From NCBI RefSeq assembly GCF_009914755.1, contig NC_060938.1: a stretch of 64,000 bases of DNA, one strand, 5' to 3'. Each line of letters opens with the position of its first letter. Within the stretch, counting starts at the first letter, position 1. This document shows, piece by piece, positions 8,148 to 54,841 of this stretch. The stretch is from the human T2T-CHM13v2.0 reference genome, Homo sapiens. A program made the translations under genes and the position numbers. The notes under the pieces were generated by a model. It saw only the letters and a program-made list of their open reading frames with translations, searched no databases and had not been told where the DNA came from.

Positions 8148-11100
8148 TCAGTCGAGGTTAGCATCTTCGTCCTCATCAGGCAGCTCTTCTAGCCTTGCCT
8201 GCTCCCTGGGCTGGCTCTCCCAGGCGGGGATGGGCAGGGCCCGCCTGTAGATCAGGGTCAGGAACTGGCTCAGGGCCCTGGCTGCCTGCTCCCGGCTGAG
8301 CAGGTGCAGCTGGCCATCTGCACTGTGGATGTGGAGCAGGCGGCTACCAAGGAATTCCAGGACCTGGGGATCCATCAGGTGGCGTGGGCGGGGTGGGTGG
8401 GTGGCTGCTGTGTGGCTGGGTGGGGCCTCCTGCACGTCGTTGTCCTGCTTGTCCTGCGAGGTGTCTTGCAGGCCGTCATGCAGGCCACACTGACGGTAAC
8501 GTTGCAGGTCGTCTTGCAGGGCTTCTCGCAAGACGACATCCTCATCACCAACGACGTGCAGCTCCAGGTAGCGGTTCTGACGCAGGGCAGGGAGGTGGCC
8601 CTCCTGGGGGGTGACTCTGACACCGAAGAACTCACACAGCGTCAGCCAGAAGCCAGGGGTGAACTGCAGGCCTCGGTGGGCCTGGGAGTGCAGAGCATTT
8701 CGCTGCCAGCGGCCAGGGCCCAGGAACAGCTCAGCCAGCTCCTGGGCTGGGATGGTGTTTGCACCTACGAGAGCGGGCATCTGGGTGAGCAGCTGGGTGA
8801 TGGCTGTCGTGATGCTGCTGCCTGCGATGAGGGACGAATCCAGGATGAGTCGTAGGGAGCGCTGGGGCTGGGGCCGAGCCACCCGCATGGCGGGTGCCGG
8901 CCGCAGCGAGAGGCATTGCCTCACGCGCAGTAGCACGAGGATGGCTGCCAGGGCTAGGGTGTTCTTCCAGTACAGGAGGCCTCGGAAGAAGTGCAGAATG
9001 ACGGCCCTGATCTGGGCCATGCTGAAGTGGGCGAGGAAGCTGTTGAGGATCTGGTCGATGGGTATCATGGCCAGCAGCTCTTGCCGTAGGATCTGTTCAT
9101 TGAGCTCATCCTGTTCTTCATTCTCTTCTTCCCCGGATTCCGTCGATGGATCCCTGGGGAATCCCCTTGAGGCCAGCAGCAGGGTTTGCCTGGCGGCAGT
9201 GTTCCTCTGGAAGGCTCTCCTCCACCGGAGGTTTCTCACAGGTGGCAGAGCTCGGCCGCCGTCTTGTTCTGGCAGCTCCATGACGTCAAAGTTGAAGTGG
9301 GAGAAGAAGAAGACCCAATGCCCGGGGAGAAGTACGGTGAGCCTGTCATTATTCAGAGAGGCTAGATCCTCTGTGTTGAGAAGGATCATGATGGGCTCCT
9401 CGGTGTTCTCCAGGTAGCGGCACCACACCATGAAGGCAGCCCGTATTGGAAGAATCTTCATCTCCGCTTGAGAGTACTCAACCTCGATAGGGGAGATGTT
9501 GCGGGAGTAGAAAGCGCAGCAGGCTCTCTTGCCGGTTTGGTCGTCGATTTGGATCAGGGAGGCGTGCAGGGCCGTGCCGGTGACGCCGGTTTCCAAGTAG
9601 AATGGGTTCTGGGGCTTGGGGTGGTGGAGGAGAGGCGCCTTGCGGAAAGCCCTCTTCAGGCACTCGAAGGCCTCTTGCTCCTGGACTCCCCAGTAGAACT
9701 GGTAGGAGCTCAGCAGCTGCCGCACCAGGGGCTCTGCGATGATGCTGAAGCGCTCCACGAAGTGGCGGTAGGGGAAGACGAATTCGATGAAGTTTCGCAG
9801 AGATAGCTTGGAGCCAGGGGTAGGGTACCCTGTTATGATGGTCATGACGTTCTTGTTCAGTTTCACCCCTTTGGGGGTGACGACGAAGCCCAGGAATTCC
9901 ACGGTTTGGCGGTGGAACTGGCTCTTGTCCAGGGAGCAGTAGACGTTGTGATGGCGGAAGCGGACCAGGACTTGGCGGACGTGGTGGAGGTGCTCCTCCT
10001 GACTCATTGAGTAGATCAGGACTTCCTGGCCATAAGAAAGCACAAAGAACCCTAGCATGTCCTTTAGGATGAAGTGAATCACGTTCTGAGGTATGATAGG
10101 GTCTGGGGAGAGCGCGAACGGCTGGTAGCTCTTCATCTCTTCAAGCTCCAAACCAAACGCTGCTTTCCACACATCTTCGGTGCGGTGCCCGTTCACGCTT
10201 TCCTCCACAATGGTCCCACGCAGCTCCAGTTTTGTGAACCACTCGGCTCCGTGTAACTGGTCAAACAGTTCCGGAATCATCTGTATGTAGTCCTGTCTGT
10301 TGGTCAGCATGTCCTGCAGGTCCCAGTATTCCTCCTGTAGCCTGGCTCTTTCTTGCATCCTGGCACCCACAGGTTCCCAAGGCGCGGTGGAGGGACACTC
10401 GTAAAAGGTCTCGCTGTGATCACTGTCTCCAGCCTGCTGAAGCTCAGAGGGCTCTGATTCAGAAAGATCATCGGATCCGTCTGAGCTTGGCTGGTCGGAA
10501 GTCTCATCATCTGCTTCCTTCGGGTTAAACACGTCGGCCAGGTCTGAGTATGGGTGTGGCAGTCCGGGTAGCAGGCTCATGCCGTGCCTCTCTAGGGCAA
10601 TGCATGGCGGGGGCGGGCGGAAGCAGTTCTTCAGGCAGTAGGGAGAGTGGAAGGTGCAGCGGCCTTTGATCCAGTCGACTTCGGGGGCGTGGACTCGGAG
10701 CCAGCGGATGCCTAGGACCACAGAGAAGTTCGGTGAAGGTACGATGTCAAATTCGATGGACTCCTGGTGGTTCTGGTGGATACACACCAGGGGCTCCGTG
10801 TAGAGCCAGACAGGCTCGTTGCCAATCAGCGAGCCGTCCACGGATTGGACCGGCTGTGGGTACGGCTTCTCGTAGAGCTCGACGTAGTGCTCTTGGGCGA
10901 ACTTCTCATCCATGAAGTTGCCGTCAGCTCCCGAATCCACCAGGGCCTGGACCGCGACGCTGTGGTAGGGGTTCACTCTCACCATGAGCAGCAGGAAGAG
11001 GTGGGCGCGATTGATGTCCGGATGGACTTCGCTGGGCAACCAGCTGCTGACCATCCACCTCTCTGGAGCAGGTGAGTCGATCCAGGTCAGGTTCCGGGGG

Positions 11101-19800: not shown

Positions 19801-20872
19801 GGGGATGATTAGAAAGGTAGGAGCACCTCCTTCCAGGGAAGACGGGTGTGTGAAGCCCTTTGTAAACTGTAAATGCTATGGACAAGTCAGGGATAGCTAC
19901 CGTCATTAGGATTCTTACGACTGTTACTTCCAGAACACCCACTGTAATTGTATGGTCAAGATTTGGACAGCATTTCATGCATGGTGTCAACTTTAATTTT
20001 CCCGTTAACCCCACAAGGGGACGATGCCCTGCTTGGAGAGTAAGTAAACTAGAGTCCAGAGGGGTGAAGTGGCTCCTCTGGAACCATAATTATCGGCGAC
20101 AATGGTGCACAGACCCAGCATACAGGACCTTCCCCGGGAGGGGCAGGCTGATGACTGGAGTTGGTGAGGGGTACGTGCGGAAGACGGAATGTGACCCAGA
20201 AAGGGACGACTAGAATGTATTTATTAAATACATTCAAATGAGTCTCTGAGTACCTGCTCTGTGTCAGGCGTGATTCTAGCCACTCACCCCTAAAACTGAC
20301 TTTGCTCCTAACGAGTTGGGGGATGTGCTGCCGTCTTACAGAGTTAAACTGGGATTCGGAGGGCGAGGTGCTGGCACAAGGCCCCCGAGAGACAGAGGCA
20401 GGGTTTAAAGCCAGGTTTCTCCTGGGCAGGAGCAGATGCCCAGAGTGGGGTTGGCAGTTGCCATTTGGGAAACTGTTGGGACCTTCAGAGCCAGAGATGC
20501 CATCTTCATTCCATGGTGTTGATACTGCCAGCCTCGTGGCCTGAGGGGCATCCAGACCACAAGAGTGGGGGTCTCAGTGTCTGCCTCCATCTCCCCCAAA
20601 GGTGCTTGCTGTCATTCCCAACTCATTCTAGCTTATTTGGTGTTCGAGGAGGGACAGGACAGCTGGCCCAGGACCTGCTAATTATAGCTGCTCAAGTATT
20701 TGAATAGAGGCCTTGAGTACACACCACCATGTCATGGTTTTTTCTTACAGACGAATGAACACTTTAACCCTTGTCCTGAGTGCCAGGCCATCCCATTCAC
20801 TGCCCCACCTCCCCTGCCTGCCCACCCGATCCCTGGGGGAGGTCGACATGGGACCTCTGCCCCACATCTTAC

Positions 20873-25424: not shown

Positions 25425-28400
25425 TTAGAAGACAATAGGTCTTGGCTGTTTCATTCCTTTTAAGAGCTGTTTAATATTCCACGGTATGTATGCACCATTG
25501 TTGATTACACTCTTCTACTGTTGAAAATCCCAGCTGAAAGTGCTCTGGGGGAGGAGAAGCTTTGGTCACAGTCCTAGCCGTCAGGGTGGGTCACAGATTC
25601 ATAGGTGTTCATTAAATTATTTTTTAAAAAAGAATACATAAAAATGGTGCTTAATGCAGATCAGTGAGGAAGCGTGTCACAAATCGAGGTTTTAATTAAT
25701 ACGATTCTGCTCAACTAATGCCCGATAAAAAAGATCTAAGCTGTTTCCATTTTTTGTTGCTGTTACCAACGACACTGCAGTGAGCATTCTTGCAGCTAAA
25801 TCTGTAAACACATCCTCGACTGTTCCTTTACCCCAGCTTCTTAGAGATGGGGTGGTGGGTTAAATTGTTTGCAAAAGTTTATTTTCATTGAGTGATCTTT
25901 CTAAAATGGCATTTTGACCTTGTTACTGTCTTGCTTTAAAGCCTCCATCTGACTTCCTGGAGCTTCCGGGACGGGGTCCAAAAAATAAGGCCTTATCCTG
26001 GCATGGAAGACCCTTTAGGGTCTGTCTTGGAACTTGCCAGCCTCAGCCCCTCCCCACTGGTGTTTACCTGCTAGGCGCACCTCACCCCCACGGGGCTACC
26101 TGTTTCTCTCAGCAGGCTCCCTACTTCTTAGGCTTTGCGCGGCCATGCCTTTTCAGCCAGTTTCTCCCCGGCCTTAAAGAGCAGGCTTGAAATATCCCTG
26201 TTGGGGAGCCCAAAGTTAGATGGGCCCCACGAAACACTGTGTTCAGAAGCCCACCGAAGCCCTGACCCTGGAAGTGGGATGCCTCATTGACATTTTTTTC
26301 CCAATTAAAGGGAATGTTTTGCATTTTTCTAGAATTGATGAAACTGGTCAACTGTTAATCACCCTCCTTCCTTTGTCCCTTTCTAGGAGCCCTGGGCTCC
26401 CCCAGTGTTGCCTGGGTCTGACTTTGCCTCAGTGAAAACTGCCTCGAATTCTTTCTTGCACCGATGGGCAGATGGGCAGTGTCGGAGGATCGTGTCATCT
26501 GTCCCGTGGCGCTGGGTAAGTCTGCAGTGTTGTAAAGCTGCAAACACCCTTCTGGGTGGGGCTCAGGCTGGCACCCCCCCACTGCCCCAGCCTGCGCTAT
26601 ACCACGTTCCCCTGATGCTTGCCTTGTGCCGGGCCCCAGAACCCAGGGTCATGGGGTTCACAGCGCGGGAGTAGCGTCTCAGTGTTGTGAGTTCTGGGGA
26701 TGAGGTTCGGGGTATGATTACAGCTTGGAAATGGCTGATTGCCATTATGGCTCCTCCTTGCCAGAGGTAAACGGGTCTGGTCCCAGAACAGGAGGAGGAC
26801 ATGTGATGACTGGAGTAACGATGAGGGGCTCTGGGGAAGGACAGGGCTGAGAGCAAGTGCTGGGACCTTTGGGACCGAGTCATATTCTAAAAAGAGCACA
26901 GGCTTTGGGGGAGAGGAGCTGTGAGGCCAAGGCAGCATCCCCCTGGGGAGCTTGTCAGGAGTAACAGGAGCCACTGGCAGTGTTTGGGCTTTTGGTCCCT
27001 TTTTTTCTCTCCCAGGGGAAGGGAGAAGGAGGCATTGCAGGAAGCCAGCCACCCTGAGCACAGACCCAGCTACAGAACAGACTTGAGCTGCGTGTCCTTG
27101 GCAAATCCCCAAGTGTTTCTGTGCCTTGGTTTCCTGATATTAAAAAAAAAAAAAAAAAGGACTCATAATCTCTCTCACACAGGGCTATTGAGATCTCAAT
27201 GAGGAAATAACGCAAATAAATCATCCAGCACAGTAGCCAACACGCAGTACCCAGCAAAACTCGGTAGCTCTCCCCATCTTACCCCGTCATGAAATGCTTA
27301 ACCCCCTCCCTGAGACGGGCAGCTGCTCCCTTTCAGGGCAGGGAGACCCAACAGAGGACAACACAAATGCCAGAGAGAGTGTGAGGGGCAATAAAAGCTG
27401 ATGCTCGCCTCCCTCCCAGACATCTTCCCAGGGAAAAGTGTGCTTTCTTGAACACCTGGGGGCCGGGGAAGGGGCTGCCCTACCACTTTGAATCGGGTTT
27501 CCCGAAAAGTTTGGTGAGAGTTTATTTTTATGTAAATAACATATAAAAAGTCAGACTTCTCCACAGGCAGATTTTTTGAGGCTCATATTTTACAGACTTT
27601 GGCAAGGGTCACTCGGAAGGAACAGTGGTTACAGTCTCCAGAGGTTCATAATTCCTGGAAAAACTTCTGGCCAAACCTGACTTCTCCTAAATTTCACAGA
27701 AAATTCTCCCTGGGCTGGGCTCAGGCTAAATGAGCTTTTTGTGTGTTAGTACAGCCTTACCTAGTGGAAGCATGACTTGCACGTTGCCCTTTACACAAAA
27801 GGGAACCTCCTCGGCCGCTGTGAACAAAGGCTCCGCTCTCCGAAATGTTTGATTTGTTTACTCGGGAGCGTGAGCCTGCTCGGGCACATGTCTGATACTG
27901 GGGCTATTTCTCTGCGGCCATATGTAGAGCTGTCCAGGTCTCTGCAATTTAACCCTGCGCTTCATGCCAGAATCCCATTTCCTAACTTCCTCAAGCAACG
28001 GGGCAAGGGAACCACAGCAAAAAGGAGTGTAGGGGGAGTGTTCCCTCCGTGTCCGGCAGGGGCTAAAGGGCTTGCTGCCCTGTGGCGTCTGCCTCTAAAT
28101 AGGGATTTGGGTCGGTGACTTTTCACATCTACACCAAAGCCCTTCAGAACCCTTTCTGCACCACCAGCTATCCTGAACCAGAAATCCCTGTTCACAGAAT
28201 TTCCCATGTGGGTGCCTCTTGTTCTGCACCCTGCATCGCGCCCCCTCCCCCGTTTATGTAAATGACACATGTAAATGTCACTCTCCCAAACATTTTCACA
28301 CCTGCAGCTTCAAATCAATCTTTTAATAGGTTAAAACAACAGCACCAACAAAAACCAACAAAAACAGAGGCTCCCGAGAAACAAACAGTTTTTCCCGAAG

Positions 28401-30037
28401 GGCTTGCAGTGCCTAACTGAGCTGCCAAGGCCGTCTGTCTGTCTGTTAGCCAGGAAGGCAAACCAGCCTGCGCACTCCACCTGCAACACGATGCTGCCCC
28501 CCGACGGCGGGTCGGAGCAGCTGTGGCGACCCCAGGGCTGACAGATTGGGTTGTCAGGAGCAGGACAATGAGGCTGCAGTGAGGATGGGCTCCATCCTTG
28601 AATGACTCTGCCCTCCTTGAAATTTTTCTGCTCCATGGAGGTGCATCTCTGCCCCCGAGGACCTTGGGCATTTCACAGACAAGGAGCCCTGGCTGGCCTC
28701 GCAGCCATCCCCCATATGCACACACGCACACGCACAGACATGCGCGCACACACACATGCTGAGTGCCTGCACTGGGAGCATAAGGCAGAAAACTCCTTTG
28801 GAAACTGCAGAACAGAGCCTTGTCTAGCAGAGGTCCCCTGATAAAGGTCCCACAGTTCCTGGGAACTGAACCCCTGTGAATGGGCCAGGAGAGGCAGCTC
28901 CCGACTCCCGTGTGGGCTGCATTCATCAGCAGGCCGGCACCCCAGCCCTGTCACTGTGTGAGGAGCTTTCATGAGTCCACTGAACATGTAAGTCACAGTC
29001 TGGCAGCTGGCTGCATCTGTGGTTGCTGCTCAGCCTCCAGAAAAGGGCCCCTCAACCTGCCAGACCTCCTCGCTCCTTCCACTCACTCTGCCAGCCTGTT
29101 GCCCCAGAGAGGACACAGGCCAGCCTCTGTGGGCTCAGGAGCCAGGGCAGGTGCTTGGCCACTCTAGGTGTTCTGGCCCTCAAGAGGGGAGTTGGCAGCA
29201 GGACAGTCCCCACCTCCCCCCACCAGCCCTGGGCACTCAACCCCATTCTCTGCTCCTCTCCCTCATTGCCTTATTGGGACAGAGGCACCCCGCCAACCAT
29301 CTCTGTGCCTTTGCCATTTAGCCCAGGGCAAGCTACTCGGGAGAGGCCAAATGGCCTCATACTGACCCCTGCCTGGTCCCCTCTGGCCACCTCGCTCACT
29401 TGCCCGCTTGCCTGCTCAGGAGTTGGTGCTGTGGGAGCTTCTCAAAGGCCTAAACATGTGGGCTGCCAGCCTGGGCAGGAAACCGTGCTGCAGCCTTCTC
29501 AGCCAAGCACTGGCCTGCCTCTCTCCCCTCGGATGCCTCCTGTAACAGGGAGCTCCCTCTCTCCCCAGGCAGCCTGCTCAGGGCTCGCACGCAGAGCTGC
29601 TTTGCTGAGCCCTCCCCTGCCTTTTGCATCTGCCTCCTCGGCTGTGCAGCAGCCCCCTTGCCCCCTCTGCCCTCCGATCTCTGCAGGCTGTGGGCTCCCT
29701 CTCTTTTCAGTCCTCTCCTTTCTGTGCTGAATGGCAATACCCCCACCAATGGTGGGAACAGGATTGGGCGCCTCTACACCTGTCCTAACACCTCTGTCTC
29801 TGTTCTTTTAGACCTGGGACAGAGCCCTTTGCCCTGCTGTTCTGCTAAAAGCCCAGGGGAGGGCGTGGTGCTCCCCTCCTGGGGCCAGCTGCTCCATGTC
29901 TATCTGTTGAGCGGCTTCTCAGCCCTCTTGGGTTTTCTATGGCCCCTTTTCCAGTTGCTAGGGAGAACGCTCTGTATGCAGCCCCCTGCCTTTTCTGCAG
30001 GAGCTGCTGGCCTCCCGGCCAGCCCTGGTCAGCCCTG

Positions 30038-30043
<6 letters not shown>

Positions 30044-30067
<24 letters not shown>
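30044..30067. repeat. (CAG)8 microsatellite
   Basis: Direct count. Confidence 0.9.
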
Positions 30068-30068
<1 letters not shown>

Positions 30069-30723
30069 AGGCAGCCACAGCAGGGCTGGGGGCTCCCGAG
30101 CCAGGCAGACCGGCTTGACTCCCTGCTCTCTAGCTGCAAGACAATTCCCTTTACTTTTCAGACTCGGCTTTTCCCCTGTGAAATGGAGATGAGAGTTTCT
30201 CCGTCACTGGCTTGAAGTGAGGACTAAATGAGATAAGTGTAGGCTTGCACACATCAGACACTTCATAAATGCTTGTGGAGTAGACGGTGGGACCCAGGGA
30301 GGGAGAGAGAGGTATGTAACAAGTGTCGCAAGAGAGAAAACAGCCTGGCCTTTCAAGACCCTGCTCCCAATACAAACGGGAACCTCTCCTGGCAGAGTCC
30401 CCTCTGCTGGCTTAATCGCACAAATCAAGTCAGCCGGAGGCAGCCCCCGGCCTGTGGAACTCACAGTAGATGCAGCAGGCAGCATAAATGACATGCAGAG
30501 CCCACATCTGCATTTAATAGACCGAGAATTTGCATTGTATATAACAGCACGAGGGGTAAAGCATGAAGGCATAAAGGAACAGTTTTTCCCGGCGGCTTCC
30601 TTGAAGGGCCAGCTTAGACAGGGGTCTGGGGAGGAGAAACTCAGCGGGGTCCGGGCATCCCATAGACTATGGGACAGACATCCATCCATGCACTCATTCT
30701 CCAAGCCACCACAGTGTACCTAC

Positions 30724-30819
30724 CTTCCCCGGGCCCAGTCCCAAGAGTGAGGCTGGGGATGAAGTGATGCCGGTGGCTTAGTGATGCCGGTGGCTTCCTG
30801 TCCTCGAAGCTCAGTCGGT
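30724..30819 (-). other. RTL1: Predicted non-coding RTL1 5' exon (96 nt)
   Basis: Minus strand CCCTGTTTGTTTCCCCCACCAG|ACCG...GGAAG|GTAGGT; no ATG inside. Confidence 0.55.
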
Positions 30820-31037
30820 CTGGTGGGGGAAACAAACAGGGAATAAGACACTGGAAATTGAGGTGATCAAGAGGGGGTGCAGGCATGGAGATTTATGGAG
30901 CCCCGTCTTGGAGCCAAGTCCCGAACTGGGCTGTCTGCAAAGAACTCACCCGGGCAATAACCCTGCACACTGGTCTCATGAGCCCCATTAGATTGATGAG
31001 GAAACTGAGGCACAGAAAGGCAAAGTCCTATACTCAC

Positions 31038-31190
31038 CGTCTCTCAGCTGGTGTGAGGCTGGGCCAGGATGGAACCCCAGACTCTCCGAGGCTCCCCACC
31101 ACACCCTGCTGCTGAAGGCTGCTCAGCGAGGCTGTGCCGAGTGCTGGGGGGGTGTGGGTGGGCAGGGGACGGATTGATTAGTTATAAGCA
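31038..31190 (-). promoter_or_regulatory. RTL1: Predicted RTL1 first exon (~31155-31038) with TATAA box at ~31182-31187
   Basis: Minus strand CTTATAAC ~30 nt upstream of the putative start; donor ACG|GTGAGTA at 31038/31037; no ATG in exon. Confidence 0.55.
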
Positions 31191-31839
31191 CCTCCCAGCG
31201 GTGCTTGAGATCCCAGCTCCTCTGTGGCCCAATCCGTTTGAAGGGCAGATTCAAAATTAGGTGGTAGCACCTATGGGCAGAGGCTTATGAAAATGGCATT
31301 ATTAACCTGATGTGGAGAGGGCCCTGCCTGTCTGCAAGTAGATTGCAGATAGAGACGGAGGGGGCTGGGCTTGTTTGTGTGGACAGTGAGTTAGAGAGGA
31401 CAGAGAACATCCAGGGGCCCTCCAGGGCTTCCGGACGGGGAGAACCAGATCTGGAGGGGCTGGACAAGTGGGAGGGGGAAGAGGGGTACGTCTTAAGGGT
31501 GCCCCGGCACCTCAGGGAAATGCCCCAGGCTGGACTTGGAGGAGGATCTCCAGCCTTGACTCTGACACAGACAGGGACTATGGCCCTCCCCGCACCTCGG
31601 TTTCCCATCTGTGAGATAAGAGATGGAAACCAAACGTCATTTCGAGAAAAGCCCCCATTCCCACCACCCTCCTGGCCCCCCCTTCCCCCACCACCACAAT
31701 CACGTTTGCCAGACACCTGTCTGCTTGTCAGAGCAATATTCAACAGGAGAGTTCCTTCGCTTCCTCCCTGGAGGGAGAAGGGAGAGGTGTGGACGGGGAG
31801 AGGGGAGGGGAGAGGTGCCCCCCACTCAGAGAGGCCGCT

Positions 31840-32520
31840 GAGCAGAGTTCTGCATCGGGTAGGAGTTGGGCCACCGAAGATTTGTGCCAACTCACGGTGC
31901 GGTGGAATCAGACAGTCTGAATTCTTCAGACACCAGCCAAGAGTCTGTGGCGCCCCCACGTGCCACAAGGGGGCTGCCTGGGCCACATTTCTGAGCCCGA
32001 AAAGTGAGGAGGGGGACAGTCAAGAGGGACCGGCGCTTTTGCTCTGGCAGCGGCGCTTTTAACTGCGACAGATGCGTGCGGTGCGGCGGGGGAGCCGGCC
32101 GTGCCGGGGCTGGGGGCTGCTGGGCGGGGGTGGTCGGGGCGGGGGGCGGGGGCTGCAGGTTGCGCCCCTCCCTCACAGACGGCTGCGCTGCAATGCAGCA
32201 GGCTGCGGGAGCTGTCCCGGGAGCTCTCCTGTCCGGTGGCCGGCTTTCCAAAGTGGGGAACGAGAGATGAGGGAGGGAGCACTTCCAGGCGCTGCGTGGT
32301 GGCCAGGCGCCCAGGAAGCCGAGGGGCCCGAGACTCTGCAGCGGGGCCAGAAAGAGAAGAGTGGGGGAGGAGGCCGGGAGTGGTGCATGGACCAGGGGGT
32401 AGAGGGAGGTGGGTGTGGACCTGGGGTCGGGCGCCAGTCAGCTTGCAGCCTATGAAGGACGGAAAGGAGGGCTACAGAGATAGGGGAAGAGTGGGGCTGA
32501 GGATAGCCAGAGCGGCTTGG
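31840..32520. promoter_or_regulatory. CpG-rich island in MEG8 intron 2 (position of the MEG8 DMR) with CTCF-like motif and GC boxes
   Basis: High CpG/GC density 32030-32350; minus-strand GTGGCACGTGGGGGCGCCA (31948-31966) resembles the CTCF core; several GGGGCGGGG at ~32120-32151. Confidence 0.75.
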
Positions 32521-35500
32521 CACACAGTTTTAGGGTAAAAGCATCAACTCTTATCTTTCCAAAAGAAATAAAAAAGCCAAAAAAAAAAAAAAAAAAAAAA
32601 AAGGCATTTGAAAGCTAGACAGCTGAATCCTTCCCAGCATGACTGAGCCGGTCACTCCAGGGTCTTCCTTCAAAGCGTGTCTAATGGGAGACAGCGTTGT
32701 CCCAGTAACCAAATTGGGACCAGAGTCCCAGGGAAGGGCTCATCAGGTGGCCGCTCTGCCTTGAAGAGTGGTACCCTCAGGCCCTTTTCCAGCCAGGGGT
32801 CAGGGAGAGAGCTGGAGGGCTCGGGGAGGCAGGGACTGGGAGGGAGAGTGGGGAGAGGAGCGCTGGGGGCTGCAGGAGGGTCTCTGGGCAGCTGGCGGGT
32901 GTCTCGTTCCGCAACACTCTGCACCCTGGTACATCGTCCTCCGTCCACTCAACGTGGAATGATTCTCTTCCCTCTGGATCCAGCCCCTCTAGTTCCCTTT
33001 TCACTTTGAGGCATTTGCCCCCTGTGAATCAGTTCCCTGCTACTCCAGAAAATTTCTCTCATACCCCAGGCCCCTCTGTTCTTTTAAATGGCACCCTTCA
33101 CCCCCAGCCCTTCATCTTCTGCACTGTATTTTCACTTGTTGATTTAAAAATCCCTTTATTATGGGAAATTGCAAACAACACAAAAGTAGAGAAAATAGTA
33201 CGTATTTTTACTGTTTACTCAATTTTCATCTTGCCATTACCCGGACACGGTTGCCGTCAAACCCTGGCCCCTCTTGTTTCATCTAAACCCTAAACTGTCC
33301 CTCTACTCCCACTGCCCAACCCCTACCCCTGGACTATTTCGAAGCAAATTTCAGACACCATCCTGTTTCCTCTGAGCATTTTTTAGTTTGTATCTCTAAA
33401 TAAGAAGCTTTTGTTTCTTAAAAATAAAACCACAACACCATTATCACAAGTTAAAAAATTAATAGCCTTTCCTTAATATCATCCACCATCTATGTAGCAT
33501 TCCAATATTCTTGATTGACTCATAAATTTCTTTTACAGTTGGCTTGGTCAAGTCAGTGTTCAAACTATCTCCTGCTCTTTCAAGGGGATCTGGGGCTCTA
33601 GAAGGTAAGTATGGCTACACATTTAGGGGTTGAATATCTGCCTGGACCTTAAATGAGAAACTCAACCTCAGCAAACCTCAGTGTTCTCACTGAAAATGGG
33701 GCAAGTTCTGGGTCTCTCCTTGGGTCATTGAGAGGGTTAGAGCATTAACCCCTGAAGCCCCAGCCGCATGTCTAATATGTCAGAGACACTCAGCAAACAG
33801 TAGCTGCGAGAATGATTCTTTTTCCCAGAAACGTTTAAAGGGGATTTGGGCAGGGGCAGGCAAAACATAGCTGGCTATTGTCCATAAAACAAAAGGCTCC
33901 TGGCAGTCCAGGTCCCCTGAGTGGTTAAAACAGCACATGCACTACATCCCAAAAAGGGCAGCCTACAGTCTGGGGGCTGGGTTCGCCTGGACCTCCTGGC
34001 TTGCCGTTTAGCTGCCTGACCTCAGCTGTTGTGACCTGGGACCAACAGGGGACCCCGGCAGGTGCCTATCCACTAGATGGCACTCTCTACTGTGAGTCCA
34101 GGGGGGACCACCACCCCAAACTGCTTTGGCCACTGCCCAGCCCTGGGTGCCACCGGAAGATGCACACCACTAAAACATCGCAGATAATTTCTAAAAAGCA
34201 CTTCTCAACATGTCATGCAAAAGATGCGGTGGTTTATTTCCTTGCATAAATCCCAACCAGATTGCAGAAGCAGAGGGAATGAACATTTAATGACTTTGCT
34301 GAGGCCAGACACTGGTATGTCTACGCTCTCTTTAAATCCTCATCCCAGCGACATCTGATTTCCCTTCATTTTACAGATTAGAGGACTTGGAGAGGTTAGT
34401 GACTTGCTCGAGGTCGGCTAGGAAGCAAGACCCAGGATTCCAACTCAGGTCTGTGTGATTCCTCTGCAAAATGGAGAGGTGGAAGGATGGATGTCAGGTC
34501 TGATGGATGGATGGATGCCTACATCAAGATACATGCATAGATGGAGAGATGGCTGGCTACCTCATGAATGCTGGTAAGATGGATGAGTGAATTGAAGCAC
34601 AGGTGGTGGAAGGAGAGAGGAATGAGAGAGGATAGTCAATTTCCCACCAAGATCAAAGGCTTACTTGATCTTTGAAGAGAGGTTCCCTCTGAATGGAGCT
34701 TGCTGGTGAAGCTCCTGCCTTCTGTTCTGCTTCTGAGCGCACTGACTGGCTCAGGTGGCTCTGGGACAACAGGTGGGATGCCAGCTTACAGGGACCAAGT
34801 CCCAGCTGTGGTGCTGGAGCTGCTCAGTGGCAACTCTCCGTCTCTGCTGCTTTCACGCAGCACTGACGAAGAGCAGGCATCCGCCTTTCCACTGGCTCTC
34901 CTGGATGACTAAGCCCTAAGCCCCAACCGCATACTCAGCCCTTCACTGGCACTTGGCATAATTTTATCTCCTCTAAATCATCACAGCCACCCTCCATGAT
35001 AGCAATTTCTATTCTCAATTAAGTGAAAAGGAAACCGAAGTTTAGGAGTGGTAAGTGACTTACCCAAAATCGTATAGGGAGGAAATGCAGACCCAGGATT
35101 TGAACTCGAGTCTTCTTTCCTTCCAAACTCATCCCCTCAACCTGTTTATTTCCTTTTCTCTATGACCATGTCTGAAGAAATCTGCCTTGGGGTTGTCTCA
35201 TATTGGACTCACTCTCTTGGTCTGTCAGTGAGCTGAACTTCTCATCCAATCAAATCCAAGCTTATTTCCCAAGTAATATCTCTAGTGTATTCTATTTGTA
35301 ATGATCACACAGGCAAGGGCCACACATATCACTGGCATCCTACAGTACAATTAATCAAGTCAAATTAGATTCCTGGCATCTCATATTCTGACTGAATGCT
35401 AATGGTAGTAGATGTAAAAATGACTCCAGTGCAAGGCAAGGAGGGAGGGGACTGGATGTAGGGCTGAATGGCGAATCAGTAAGCCTTGCTGCAGACCTGG

Positions 35501-35674
35501 GTTAACATTAGCAGATAGGTTTTGAGAACCTGCTCATGGGCTAGGCCCTACTTCACACATTCTAGGTGCTAAGGTTTCAATCTCAGCTTTGCCATTGACT
35601 ACTTTTGTGAGTTTGGACAAGGTATTTAATTTCTGTGCCGCGTTTTCTTCAGTTGTACCAACAGTACCTTACTA

Positions 35675-36063
<389 letters not shown>

Positions 36064-38579
36064 GAATGCTTTCCAGATGTTGAGCATTCAATAAATATTT
36101 ACTTACAGTGAAAATTACAGTTGTTATAAGTATTGTTATTGAGGTGTCATTTGATATCATTGGCAGGTAAGAATCATTATCCACATTTTACCAGTAACTG
36201 AACAGGTGCTCAGAGAGGCCTGTGTGCTTGTCTTTGGAGAATGCATCAGTGAAATAGAAACAGAAATACTAATTTAAAACTAGAAGTTCTAGTGATAGAA
36301 GTAAGAGTTCTACACAGCAAATGGGCATGATCCATCTAAAGAAAGATGAAACCCTAAGAGAGGTGAGACTCCTGTGAAGGAATTTCCTTGCAGTATAGGG
36401 GCTTACACAGGGGTTGCATGGTTGCTGGGAAGAAGCTGAGTAGGTCAAAGGCAAGATAAATAATTACAGTCCTCTGAATCCAAGTTTCTGAGGTTGAAAT
36501 TCATTAAACTTCATGGTTTCTAGCAGTAATGGGCAAGGTTCCCCAGTTCTCAGATATGATTTCATTAAACTTCTTTCCCTTCCTATTTTTTGGGGGAGAA
36601 ACAGTCACTTGAGAAATGTTTCTTGACTTGCTCTTTTGGAGGTGGCCAGTTGGAAAAATTCTGAGTCTCTTACCATGAGGGGCATGAGGACTGGGAAGCC
36701 TCCTCCTTTTCCTGGGGCAGCACATCTGTAACTGGAGCCTAGGTGGCATGTGGCTGCACATCACATGGGGTGCCTCTGGCGGGGTGCAATCGGATGCCCT
36801 AACAGCCAGGCGGGAGGAGATGGGTTTAGCATTGGTGCTGACTTGCTGGGCTGTGTTGAGGATAAGCTGTGATCCCAGCATTGCCTGACTTCAGATTCTG
36901 TGCCAGTCCTGTAAGAACTGTTGCCCCTGCATCTCCTCCAAGATGGACAGTCTATTTATTCATCCAGGTCCAATGGTACATCCTGGGGATTCCCTCTGCT
37001 TCTGGGGCTGCCTGTGTGGGAGGTCAGAAAAACCTTCGCACCTCCCCCCCAGCCCCCGCCACGTGATTTATTCTCACACTCACATTGCGGGCTGGCAGTG
37101 GGACATTGCTGCCAAAACGAGGCTTCCGGAAGAAGTGGTAAGGCCGACTCTGGAGCGACACTGCCCGGGTTTGCCTCCTGGCTCAGCATTTCCTTGCTGT
37201 GTGACCACTTATAAGTCACTTAACTTCCCTGAGTCTCAGTTTCCTTAGGTATAAAATAGGACTAGTAATGCTTTGCTCAAATATCATCATCTCCGTGAGG
37301 CCTCCTCCCTGGTGTCACTCCCTACCCCCTTCCTGCTTTATTTTCCTCCCTAGTTCTTACCACCATCTTTTATCCCATGCATTAGGCTTACCTTTTCTGA
37401 TGATTTTCTGTTCCTATCTCCACCCACAGGGATGTTAATTCTCATGGAACCGGGATCTGTCCGTTTTGCTCACTACTGTATCCCTGGCACTTAGACCCAG
37501 CAACAATACAAAGTGCATGCTCAGAAATTTTGGGGAAAAATTTATGAGATACTATTGAATTGTATCCACCCCAGAGGAGTGTCAATGTATGCAAAGTAGG
37601 CAGTGTGGTGCTTGGTACAGAGTATGCATTCAATAAATATTGGCTAATTATGATTATTATGTCTAATTCACAGGACTGTTGTGAGAATCAAACGAGATAA
37701 TGTATGCTGAGGCATGCTGTGAACACTACGTGCTGGGTACAGGAGGTACAATATTAATGATCCCTGCTGCTTGGAGGGAACTTGCACTTAAAATGTTATG
37801 CTTTTCATTTTCACACCACTTAGGAGGGAGGAAAGGCTGGTGGGATGATCGCCACCTGAGGCTCAGGGAGGGGACAGGCCTTCTCCAAGGCCTCACAGTA
37901 TGAAGAAGGCAGGGGCAGGTCCCCACACTGGTGGTCTTCCCACGACTCCCTCATGACAGTCCCCCAATGGACAGATTGATGTGTAAATGACGTTATACAC
38001 CTACACCATAACTCTATATAATATATAGAATTATTTTCAGGTCCCTGAGTTGCTCTGAGGCCAGTTGTGGCAGGTGGTACACACCCAGGACAAGCTGGGG
38101 GGAGGGGTAAGAAGGAAACTGGCTGTGTATCTTTGGTAAGGCCCATAGTGAAGCCTCTTTTGGTTTCTTGGAATCAAGTTGAACATCAAGAATCTCACTG
38201 CATAGACTTCCCCAAGGGCAGTCCCACTTCACAAAATGAATTTTCATTTTCCAAAGCACATCCCTTAGTTGGATTTCTGTTTTTCAGTGTATTTGTTTAA
38301 GCTCTGATGCCATGTCCAAAAAAGAACATGCCCGAACAATTCCCTGCCCGAGTCCCAAACCCTTGGCTTGATCTGAGCATTGAACTAATTCATTTCTTTG
38401 ATCAAACTGGGGACTGTTTGAGCAGTGGGCTGGGCGTCATGGGACGGGGAAAGGGTGGGGTGTGCGCAGGTGTGCAAGGCGGGCTACTTGAGGGATGGGC
38501 GATAGTTCAGGTCACCCTCCGGTTGGACCCACGAGGGCGCTGCATTCCTCATTCTACAAACCGTACAAGTCGGGGCACA

Positions 38580-38654
38580 AGACAGAGAAGCCAGGTCACG
38601 TCTCTGCAGTTACACAGCTCACGAGTGCCTGCTGGGGTGGAACCTGGTCTGTCT
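38580..38654 (+). ncRNA. MIR370: miR-370 precursor
   Basis: GCCTGCTGGGGTGGAACCTGGT at 38627-38648; 5p CAGGTCACGTCTCTGCAGTTAC. Confidence 0.96.
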
Positions 38655-39786
38655 GTCTGTCTAACACCAGAGCTCGGGCGCTGCTGCAGAGGGAGCCAAG
38701 ATTTGGGTGAGGGAGGGGGCTCAGAGGTGGGATGGAGGGTTTTTTTGTATTTTTTTTTAACCTGGTTGCCATTGGCTTGAAAATAATAACATAACTTTGC
38801 TTGGGGACCCCCCACTGCAACTATCTTGCTGATGGGGAAGCAGGCACAGAGACGTTAGTTTGCTTTGCTGATGTCACCCAGCTCGTCTGGCATTGAGGCT
38901 GGATTTGGGAGGTGGGTACTGAGGTGTGAGCATATGTGCTGCAACCACTGGGCCCACTGGCTCGTGGTGTGTGCGCAGGTGCAGATGGCTCAGTGATCTG
39001 GGTTTGAGGGCTTTTACCAATCCCCCCAGCAGTGGGTGTACTCTGAACTCAAGCTTGTGTATTTCACACTCTCCCTCGACCCTTCTCTTTAGCCTTCACT
39101 GAAAACTCCTGCAAGCCACTGACCCATGGAAAATATTTAAGAATACATATATTACATATATGTTGTAAATTTATATATATATGTATCTGGAAAGGGATTG
39201 TATCCAGGAGATTTGGGAGTGATTGTTTAAGGTAGAGGGAGGCAGGGGCATGAGAGGGGGAGGGATGGAGGTGGGGACCACCAGTGGTAATTCTCGTGGG
39301 TGGTTTTAACAATCAATACAAGAAGAGAGAGACATGCCAGCAGCAAGGACGGGAGTGGGTTGTAAACCAGGGATGGTGATTAATTCTTCACAACTGAGGG
39401 GCATTAAAAAAAGAAATCAGAGTGGTTCGTGGCTATTAATTTTGTTATTAAAAATAATCAAGGAATAAAGAAATAAGGTAATAAAGGCCTCGAATGGAAC
39501 AATTCTGAGAATGTGTTCTGGGCAAAGGATTATGACTAATCCAGGTCTGGTAACCTGATATTAACAAACAAAAAAGGCCTCGTAGGCTATTTTCTTTTTT
39601 TAACCGGCTTTATGTTCCATAGAATGGGCACACTGGGGTTTCTCTCCCAGAGAAGGTGAGTGCAGACAAATAAAAGCCGGCTTTGTGGGTGTTGATTGAA
39701 CAGTTAAAAATGAATGAATGCGTAAATAAAACCAGAGACAGCCAAGCATGTACCAATGATGGCAATGTGTTCCTCACTCCCCAGCT

Positions 39787-54770: not shown

Positions 54771-54841
54771 ATAGCCAATCATTAGTATTCTGAGCTGTAG
54801 GAATCAAAGATTTTGATTAGATTCTGTAACTCAGAGGTTTA
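54771..54841 (+). ncRNA. SNORD113-2: SNORD113-2 (C and D boxes both degenerate)
   Basis: ATAGCCAATCATTAGTATTCTG...TTTTGATTAG...CTCAGAGGTTTA; homologous to the -1/-3/-4 copies. Confidence 0.8.

What the first reader, a model, noticed from the sequence alone, without database searches (positions are those of the whole stretch)
31030..31149. Human counterpart of rodent miR-1188, antisense to the predicted RTL1 first exon and built from a MIR
Seen: TGGTGTGAGGCTGGGCCAGGA (31049-31069) and TCCGAGGCTCCCCACCACACCCTGC (31085-31109) form a GGTGTG/CACACC hairpin. They directly follow a MIR core (GATGAGGAAACTGAGGCACAGA, ~30995). From memory these are near-identical to mouse miR-1188-5p/3p, which I do not recall being annotated in human. 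The same bases on the minus strand form the predicted RTL1 exon 1 with its GTGAGTA donor. Inference: a possible sixth perfectly complementary anti-RTL1 small RNA acting on the 5' UTR, or conservation driven only by the RTL1 exon and promoter.
Basis: partly seen in the sequence, partly recalled or inferred. Interest (0 to 1): 0.7.

Follow-up and report, generated by a model that had tools for sequence, protein, structure and literature searches.

The report
miR-1188 relic inside RTL1 first exon
An old repeat fragment forms the first exon of the imprinted placenta and muscle gene RTL1 and, on the opposite strand, is the human match of the rodent microRNA miR-1188; it likely yields little microRNA in people, but any it does yield would be a perfect-match guide against the start of RTL1 mRNA.

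Summary
Window 31039-31120(+) matches Rfam mir-1188 end to end (102 bits, cut-off 106; 77 of 82 bases; the only strong match in the genome). The 5p arm equals the published mouse guide at 20 of 21 bases. The hairpin lies wholly inside curated RTL1 exon 1 (31038-31155, minus), between a GT donor and a TATA-like box, in a MEG8 intron. The MIR repeat does not just precede the hairpin: it covers the donor, 5p arm and loop (31004-31089); a MIR origin of the 3p arm is only suggestive. Against an active human miRNA: the hairpin is no more stable than shuffles (z -0.9; all 8 annotated neighbours score -2.1 to -7.7), and two deep human catalogues lack it, though one lists weak products of the same cluster. 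For it: 94% conservation, with all 5 differences keeping the structure (P about 0.1). Human/mouse similarity was already noted in 2015; I found no paper noting the overlap with RTL1 exon 1. Verdict: a dual-strand MIR relic, most likely kept mainly as RTL1's first exon; a sixth slicing guide remains possible (about 30%) and is cheap to test.

The parts
31039..31120 (+). Hairpin orthologous to rodent pre-mir-1188, in the MEG8 intron between exons 26387-26515 and 33539-33604
   Evidence: Rfam RF03856 102 bits, E 7.6e-25, full model; single strong match in the genome; 26 of 26 model pairs are standard pairs in human
31049..31069 (+). 5p arm, equivalent of mouse miR-1188(-5p); predicted slicing position on RTL1 mRNA nt 97/98
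   Evidence: 20 of 21 identical to the mouse guide in the PMC4395123 supplement; cut site computed
31085..31109 (+).
   Evidence: Identical to the Rfam consensus over this stretch; gives a 0-nt overhang on the loop side and about 3 nt on the base side
31038..31155 (-). RTL1 first exon (118 nt, non-coding; spliced 5' UTR of 362 nt with no upstream ATG)
   Evidence: RefSeq NM_001134888.3 in the supplied gene table; canonical GT/AG at all three introns
31031..31037 (-). 5' splice donor GTGAGTA of RTL1 exon 1, inside the MIR and not a consensus feature of it
   Evidence: 6 of 91 other copies have a GTRAG on that strand within 45 nt of the core
31004..31089 (+). MIR-type SINE remnant (family name recalled) covering donor, 5p arm and loop; RTL1 reads it in the SINE's own direction (inferred from a B-box-like remnant at 31067-31077)
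   Evidence: Profile from 91 copies, core excluded: E 1.1e-5 per window; refined 54-copy profile E 6.2e-12, 45 of 68 ungapped identity against a null mean of 23
30998..31011 (+). MIR core motif
   Evidence: 8,104 exact copies in the genome against 111 for the reversed control
31181..31187 (-). TATA-like box about 31 nt upstream of the RefSeq RTL1 5' end
   Evidence: TTATAA at 31182-31187; 28 such hexamers in the window, about 0.004 expected per 10-nt slot
31860..32520 (.). MEG8:Int2-DMR (approximate), maternally methylated, 0.7-1.4 kb upstream of the RTL1 start
   Evidence: hg38 100,904,423-100,905,080 in PMC12764072, placed with the miR-665 anchor; densest CpG 300-mer of the window

Best explanation
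A MIR repeat remnant supplies the splice donor and much of the first exon of RTL1 on the minus strand and the human orthologue of the rodent mir-1188 hairpin on the plus strand; it is likely kept mainly as RTL1's first exon, with the hairpin likely processed so poorly in human that slicing here would be minor. Steps: (1) shown: MIR homology over donor, 5p arm and loop; (2) shown by annotation and sequence: a spliced, ATG-free first exon with a TATA-like box at -31; (3) inferred: the donor arose by substitution in this copy, letting a promoter 19 kb upstream splice into the retrotransposon-derived coding exon; (4) established: the maternal MEG3-MEG8 transcript runs through the same DNA on the other strand; (5) inferred: the bulged hairpin in that transcript is a marginal Drosha/Dicer substrate, measurable in rodents and at or below detection in human; (6) follows from geometry: any guide made is perfectly complementary to exon-1-containing RTL1 mRNA.
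For: Hairpin z -0.86 to -0.96 against -2.1 to -8.3 for 8 of 8 annotated hairpins in the window. Only 15 of 21 5p bases are paired; there is no basal UG, and the loop-side overhang is 0 nt for the named arms. No row at this place in McCall 2017 Table S7, which lists even single-read loci, nor among its 15 cross-species orthologues, while weak products of the same cluster are listed (miR-665-5p 57 reads, miR-1193-3p 16 reads). None among 2,469 candidates of Friedlander 2014. PMC2632752 lists mmu-miR-1188 without the 'also in human' mark. The AGO2 preprint names six anti-Rtl1 miRNAs and 10 perfect sites and never mentions miR-1188 in its main text. An independent job exists: donor, TATA-like box, ATG-free UTR, and a DMR just upstream.
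Against: 77 of 82 identity to the Rfam consensus is very high for a 5' UTR exon (P 8e-6 at an assumed 75% baseline). All 5 differences keep the structure (P about 0.10), and only 1 of 5 falls in the 46 arm bases (P 0.11), the pattern of a conserved miRNA. Rodent miR-1188 is measured by qRT-PCR. I did not check whether the two human catalogues include placenta or fetal muscle, and their pipelines may discard weak hairpins. The AGO2 preprint's transcript model may lack this exon. Whether mouse Rtl1 starts at the same place could not be checked (Ito 2015 not held).
Confidence: 0.5

Rival explanations
1. It is a real, tissue-restricted human miRNA. Maternal miR-1188 loads AGO2 and slices paternal RTL1 mRNA in exon 1, removing the cap, as a sixth self-targeting hairpin that is selective for exon-1 isoforms.
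For: 94% identity with an intact seed. All 26 model pairs are standard in human. Differences avoid the arms and keep pairing (each P about 0.1). AGO2 slicing of Rtl1 by antisense miRNAs is established in mouse. miR-370, an annotated miRNA of the same host, comes from the same MIR segment.
Against: Hairpin not above shuffles. Absent from two human catalogues. 4 bits under Rfam's cut-off. In a rat array atlas miR-1188-5p is near background in most tissues (middle value 0.16 against 35 for miR-127; column meaning inferred, head row not seen).
Confidence: 0.3
2. The hairpin yields a low-level ordinary miRNA conserved for seed-type targets elsewhere, and the RTL1 overlap is incidental.
For: Seed identical in mouse and human. 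PMC4395123 reports Bcl2 and Sp1 reporter repression by mimics and opposite effects of an inhibitor in a mouse line.
Against: Those data are mouse-only and rest largely on several-hundred-fold overexpression. No human reads in the catalogues searched.
Confidence: 0.12
3. The constraint acts on DNA: the MIR remnant is a promoter-downstream or enhancer element for RTL1, for example through the E-box at 31045-31050, and the hairpin is a by-product.
For: E-box CAGCTG inside exon 1, present in the Rfam consensus. RTL1 is expressed in muscle. The DMR with a reported CTCF site lies 0.7 kb away.
Against: E-box hexamers are common (3 sites in 2 kb), and a 6-mer cannot explain 77 of 82 identity. No binding data were available.
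Confidence: 0.08

Closest known systems
Rodent mir-1188 (Rfam RF03856; mmu-miR-1188 in a Meg8/Rian intron)
   Same: Same host intron region upstream of miR-370, 77 of 82 bases to the family consensus, same fold, same seed.
   Different: Not annotated in human, 4 bits under the family cut-off, no human reads in two catalogues. The passages I read do not link it to Rtl1.
RTL1-antisense self-targeting miRNAs (miR-431, -433, -127, -432, -136; miR-434 in rodents)
   Same: Maternal plus-strand hairpin opposite paternal RTL1 mRNA, so perfectly complementary and able in principle to guide AGO2 slicing.
   Different: Those lie in the retrotransposon-derived coding exon, fold strongly (z -2.1 to -7.7) and have mapped cuts. 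This one lies 19 kb away in a SINE-derived 5' UTR exon, folds weakly, would hit only exon-1 isoforms, and has no mapped cut.
MIR-derived miRNAs and exonised MIR elements (general classes, recalled); MIR370 as the local example
   Same: A hairpin and a splice site carved from a MIR copy. MIR370 matches the same profile in the same orientation (E 0.005-0.008 per window).
   Different: Here one copy serves both strands: first exon of an imprinted protein gene and hairpin in the reciprocally imprinted host. The mir-1188 hairpin starts about 30 nt further into the repeat than miR-370.

Membership tests
mir-1188 family (Rfam RF03856) | Full-length sequence and structure match | tested here: met
   Model 1-82 of 82, E 7.6e-25, 26 of 26 pairs standard
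mir-1188 family (Rfam RF03856) | Score at or above the curated gathering threshold | tested here: not met
   102 bits against 106; it is an orthologue by position and sequence, not a member by Rfam's rule
mir-1188 family (Rfam RF03856) | Syntenic single copy in a MEG8 intron upstream of miR-370 | tested here: met
   One strong match in the genome; mouse placement in PMC2632752; gene table
Canonical miRNA gene | Stable hairpin with about 16 or more pairs between the arms | tested here: inconclusive
   16 of the first 22 5p bases paired, equal to miR-370, but z -0.96 with 45 of 300 shuffles as good
Canonical miRNA gene | 2-nt 3' overhangs at both ends of the duplex | tested here: inconclusive
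Canonical miRNA gene | Microprocessor motifs (basal UG, apical UGU, CNNC 16-18 nt downstream) | tested here: inconclusive
   No UG at -14, no UGU right after the 5p arm, CNNC at +10 and +15 from the named 3p end; the motifs are optional (recalled)
Canonical miRNA gene | Reads from both arms with homogeneous 5' ends in human | tested here: inconclusive
   No raw reads available; absent from two published candidate tables, which leans negative
RTL1 self-targeting (slicing) miRNAs | Perfect complementarity to mature RTL1 mRNA | tested here: met
   Both arms lie inside exon 31038-31155 of NM_001134888.3; true by construction for that isoform
RTL1 self-targeting (slicing) miRNAs | AGO2-dependent cut opposite guide nt 10/11 | not testable with these tools
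   Predicted at mRNA nt 97/98 and 61/62; not among the cuts described in the preprint's main text; its supplements were closed
MIR SINE remnant | Homology to the high-copy core and the tRNA-like head | tested here: met
   Core with 8,104 copies; profile match 31004-31089, E 6.2e-12. The name MIR is recalled; no repeat library was available
MIR SINE remnant | Homology continues through the 3p arm (A-box side of the head) | tested here: inconclusive
   Four column ranges: p 0.02-0.09 against random windows, 0.05-0.26 against shuffles; needs about 11 nt deleted

The most novel reading that the evidence does not exclude
One MIR insertion gave RTL1 its first exon and, on the opposite strand, a conserved maternal miRNA that slices that exon. 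It would be an overlooked sixth, isoform-selective, cap-removing brake on RTL1, sitting beside the maternally methylated MEG8:Int2-DMR, which would then act as RTL1's promoter-proximal imprint.
Probability: 0.25. Interest if true: 0.65.

Novelty: new member of a known kind. Interest (0 to 1): 0.35.

Why it matters
RTL1 dosage underlies placental and muscle features of Kagami-Ogata and Temple syndromes, and mouse work points to Rtl1 as the key AGO2 slicing target. If the hairpin is active, miRNA control of RTL1 reaches outside the coding exon. Deletions or variants in a MEG8 intron could then change RTL1 level, and models that silence only the coding-exon sites would be incomplete. If it is inactive, the locus is still a tidy case of a SINE supplying the first exon of a domesticated retrotransposon gene. 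It also places a DMR described as of unknown function next to the RTL1 start site.

Tried and rejected
Rfam at gathering threshold missed the locus (15 other hits); it appears only in the E-value scan. Folding with wider flanks: the hairpin is predicted to form with 30-nt flanks (duplex 0.86) and not with 60-100 nt (0.03-0.06), but annotated miR-431 fails the same way (0.04) and miR-433 partly (0.3), so I gave this no weight. Minus-strand fold is also unremarkable (z -0.70). An intermediate 34-copy repeat profile scored the locus worse (E 0.007) than the first and last; the last training set includes 4 of 107 loci picked by similarity to this region, the first does not. The 91 copies come from 90 loci taken from the first 100 listed of 8,104 matches, all on one contig. 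No MIR homology was found upstream of the core. The bacterial promoter scan is not informative here. DNA search with window 35031-35186 returned only itself. Glazov 2008, Caiment 2010 and Ito 2015 are not held; they could bear on orthology, sheep expression and the mouse Rtl1 start sites. PMC4226911, PMC6805670, PMC10570562 and PMC7986171 do not discuss miR-1188 in the passages returned. Searches for first-exon papers gave nothing useful, nor did those for a repeat origin or curated status. No other mammalian genome was available, so flank conservation is untested. Rejected: chance resemblance (E 7.6e-25), and generic MIR similarity as the cause of the Rfam hit (next best genome match 26 bits).

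Full report
Observation. The two strings lie at 31049-31069 and 31085-31109 and pair in the predicted fold. An E-value scan of 30000-32000 finds Rfam RF03856 mir-1188 at 31039-31120(+), all 82 model positions, 102 bits, E 7.6e-25. It was missed at the gathering threshold of 106, where 15 other RNAs of the window were found. Reading the printed alignment, 77 of 82 positions equal the consensus. Across the genome the model has 2 matches at E<=10: this one and one of 26 bits. The supplement of PMC4395123 gives the mouse guide, which equals 31049-31069 at 20 of 21 bases, differing at nt 11.

Minus strand. The supplied RefSeq table puts RTL1 exon 1 of NM_001134888.3 at 31038-31155, so the hairpin is wholly exonic. 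All three introns have GT/AG ends, the spliced 5' UTR is 362 nt with no upstream ATG, and a TATA-like hexamer lies about 31 nt upstream of the annotated 5' end (28 copies in the window). The densest CpG 300-mer of the window starts at 32001. Anchoring hg38 on miR-665-5p identifies this stretch with the MEG8:Int2-DMR, maternally methylated and described as of unknown function (PMC12764072 passages). In mouse, deleting it lowered Rtl1 in a cell line but by under 10% in embryos, and raised miR-1188 on paternal deletion.

Repeat origin. The 14-base core has 8,104 exact copies against 111 for the control. A profile from the 170 bases after the core in 91 copies (90 loci from the first 100 listed; core excluded) hits 31007-31088 at E 1.1e-5 per window. 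A 54-copy profile gives 31004-31089 at E 6.2e-12 and 45 of 68 ungapped identity; 2 of 5,000 random window stretches reach that. So donor, 5p arm and loop are repeat-derived, correcting 'directly follow'. The 3p arm resembles the far end of the repeat head only weakly (p 0.02-0.26 over four column ranges and two nulls). The donor is not a consensus feature (6 of 91 copies have a GTRAG nearby). The names MIR, A-box and B-box are recalled; no repeat library was at hand. The same profile hits annotated MIR370.

Is it a human miRNA? For: conservation of 94%, against an assumed neutral 67% or UTR-like 75% (baselines recalled; P 5e-9 and 8e-6), with the caveat that the species behind the Rfam consensus were not shown. 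All 26 model pairs are standard in human. Of the 5 differences, 3 are unpaired and 2 turn A-U into G-U (P about 0.10), and 1 lies in the 46 arm bases (P 0.11). Neither test is significant. Against: z -0.86 with 38 of 200 shuffles as good, whereas 8 of 8 annotated hairpins score -2.1 to -7.7, repeated with equal flanks (-0.96 against -2.2 to -8.3). McCall 2017 (PMC5630040; passages and supplements) has no row at hg38 chr14:100.89-100.91 Mb in Table S7. That file was cut when stored, but rows run in chromosome order to chr7, so chr14 is inferred to be held; Table S5 was too large to read. Its 15 cross-species orthologues exclude miR-1188, yet it lists weak arms from the same cluster at 16-57 reads. 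Friedlander 2014 (PMC4054668; supplements only) has no chr14 candidate at 101.3-101.5 Mb among 2,469 (hg19 place recalled). Folding in wider context did not discriminate.

Literature. PMC4395123 (passages, one supplement; Fig. 1A not visible) says human and mouse miR-1188 differ by one base, so the counterpart is in print. PMC2632752 (passages, section 19) places miR-1188 in a Meg8 intron without the human mark and finds two Peg11 exons. No paper holds 'hsa-miR-1188', 'human miR-1188', 'mir-1188 ortholog' or 'mir-1188 family'. Five papers hold both miR-1188 and Rtl1; I read passages of 3 of the 5 and none links them by overlap. The AGO2 preprint 10.1101/2025.04.02.646793 (sections 6 and 7, passages; supplements closed) reports 10 perfect sites for miRNAs above 30 RPM and 7 mapped cuts from five miRNAs, with no mention of miR-1188; its Table S3 could bear on this. 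PMC6805670 treats only coding-region miRNAs in the passages seen. PMC11194098 (passages) proposes that polycistron transcription blocks Rtl1 in cis, possibly by transcriptional interference. Glazov 2008, Caiment 2010 and Ito 2015 were not held, so prior notice there cannot be excluded.

Mechanism and verdict. Most likely (0.5) a MIR copy gained a donor and became the first exon of RTL1 behind a TATA-like promoter. The maternal MEG8 transcript reads the same bases as a bulged hairpin that rodents process at low level and humans barely. Any guide made would match RTL1 exon 1 perfectly and cut at mRNA nt 97/98, but five strong hairpins in the coding exon already do this work. The main rival (0.3) is a real tissue-restricted slicing guide, favoured by conservation higher than a UTR exon needs. 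Seed-type function elsewhere (0.12) and a DNA element (0.08) are less likely. It works like an RTL1 self-targeting miRNA in geometry; membership needs reads and a mapped cut, which I could not test. Interest 0.35; new member of a known kind.

Noticed in passing
window 38582-38663 (+): Annotated MIR370 matches the same MIR-type profile in the same orientation (E 0.005-0.008 per window; 31 of 68 ungapped). Two MEG8-intron hairpins thus come from different registers of separate MIR copies. A repeat origin of miR-370 is, from recall, already published.
   Followed up: partly
window about 31860-32520: The MEG8:Int2-DMR, the window's densest CpG stretch, lies 0.7-1.4 kb upstream of the RTL1 start and is unmethylated on the allele that expresses RTL1. 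The passages I read do not mention this proximity. Deletion in mouse embryos changed Rtl1 by under 10%.
   Followed up: partly
window 31045-31050: E-box CAGCTG inside RTL1 exon 1 and the hairpin base; one change from the repeat's majority sequence and present in the Rfam consensus.
   Followed up: no
window 30753-30800: RTL1 exon 2 holds an exact direct repeat of about 18 bases in two copies 20 nt apart (seen).
   Followed up: no
window 35046-35144(+), 37122-37240(-), 35573-35637(-), 34386-34452(+), 37856-37922(+), 27009-27127(-), 20371-20423(+), 38842-38906(+): Further MIR-like pieces, most or all outside the long masked stretches listed in the annotation; they cluster around 34-39 kb.
   Followed up: no
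window 54771-54841: SNORD113-2 is annotated but was not among the Rfam hits at the gathering threshold, unlike SNORD113-1, -3 and -4.
   Followed up: no
window 8443-8556: The miR-431 hairpin is predicted to lose its stem to an alternative fold when flanks are included (pair probability 0.04), although it is an established miRNA.
   Followed up: no
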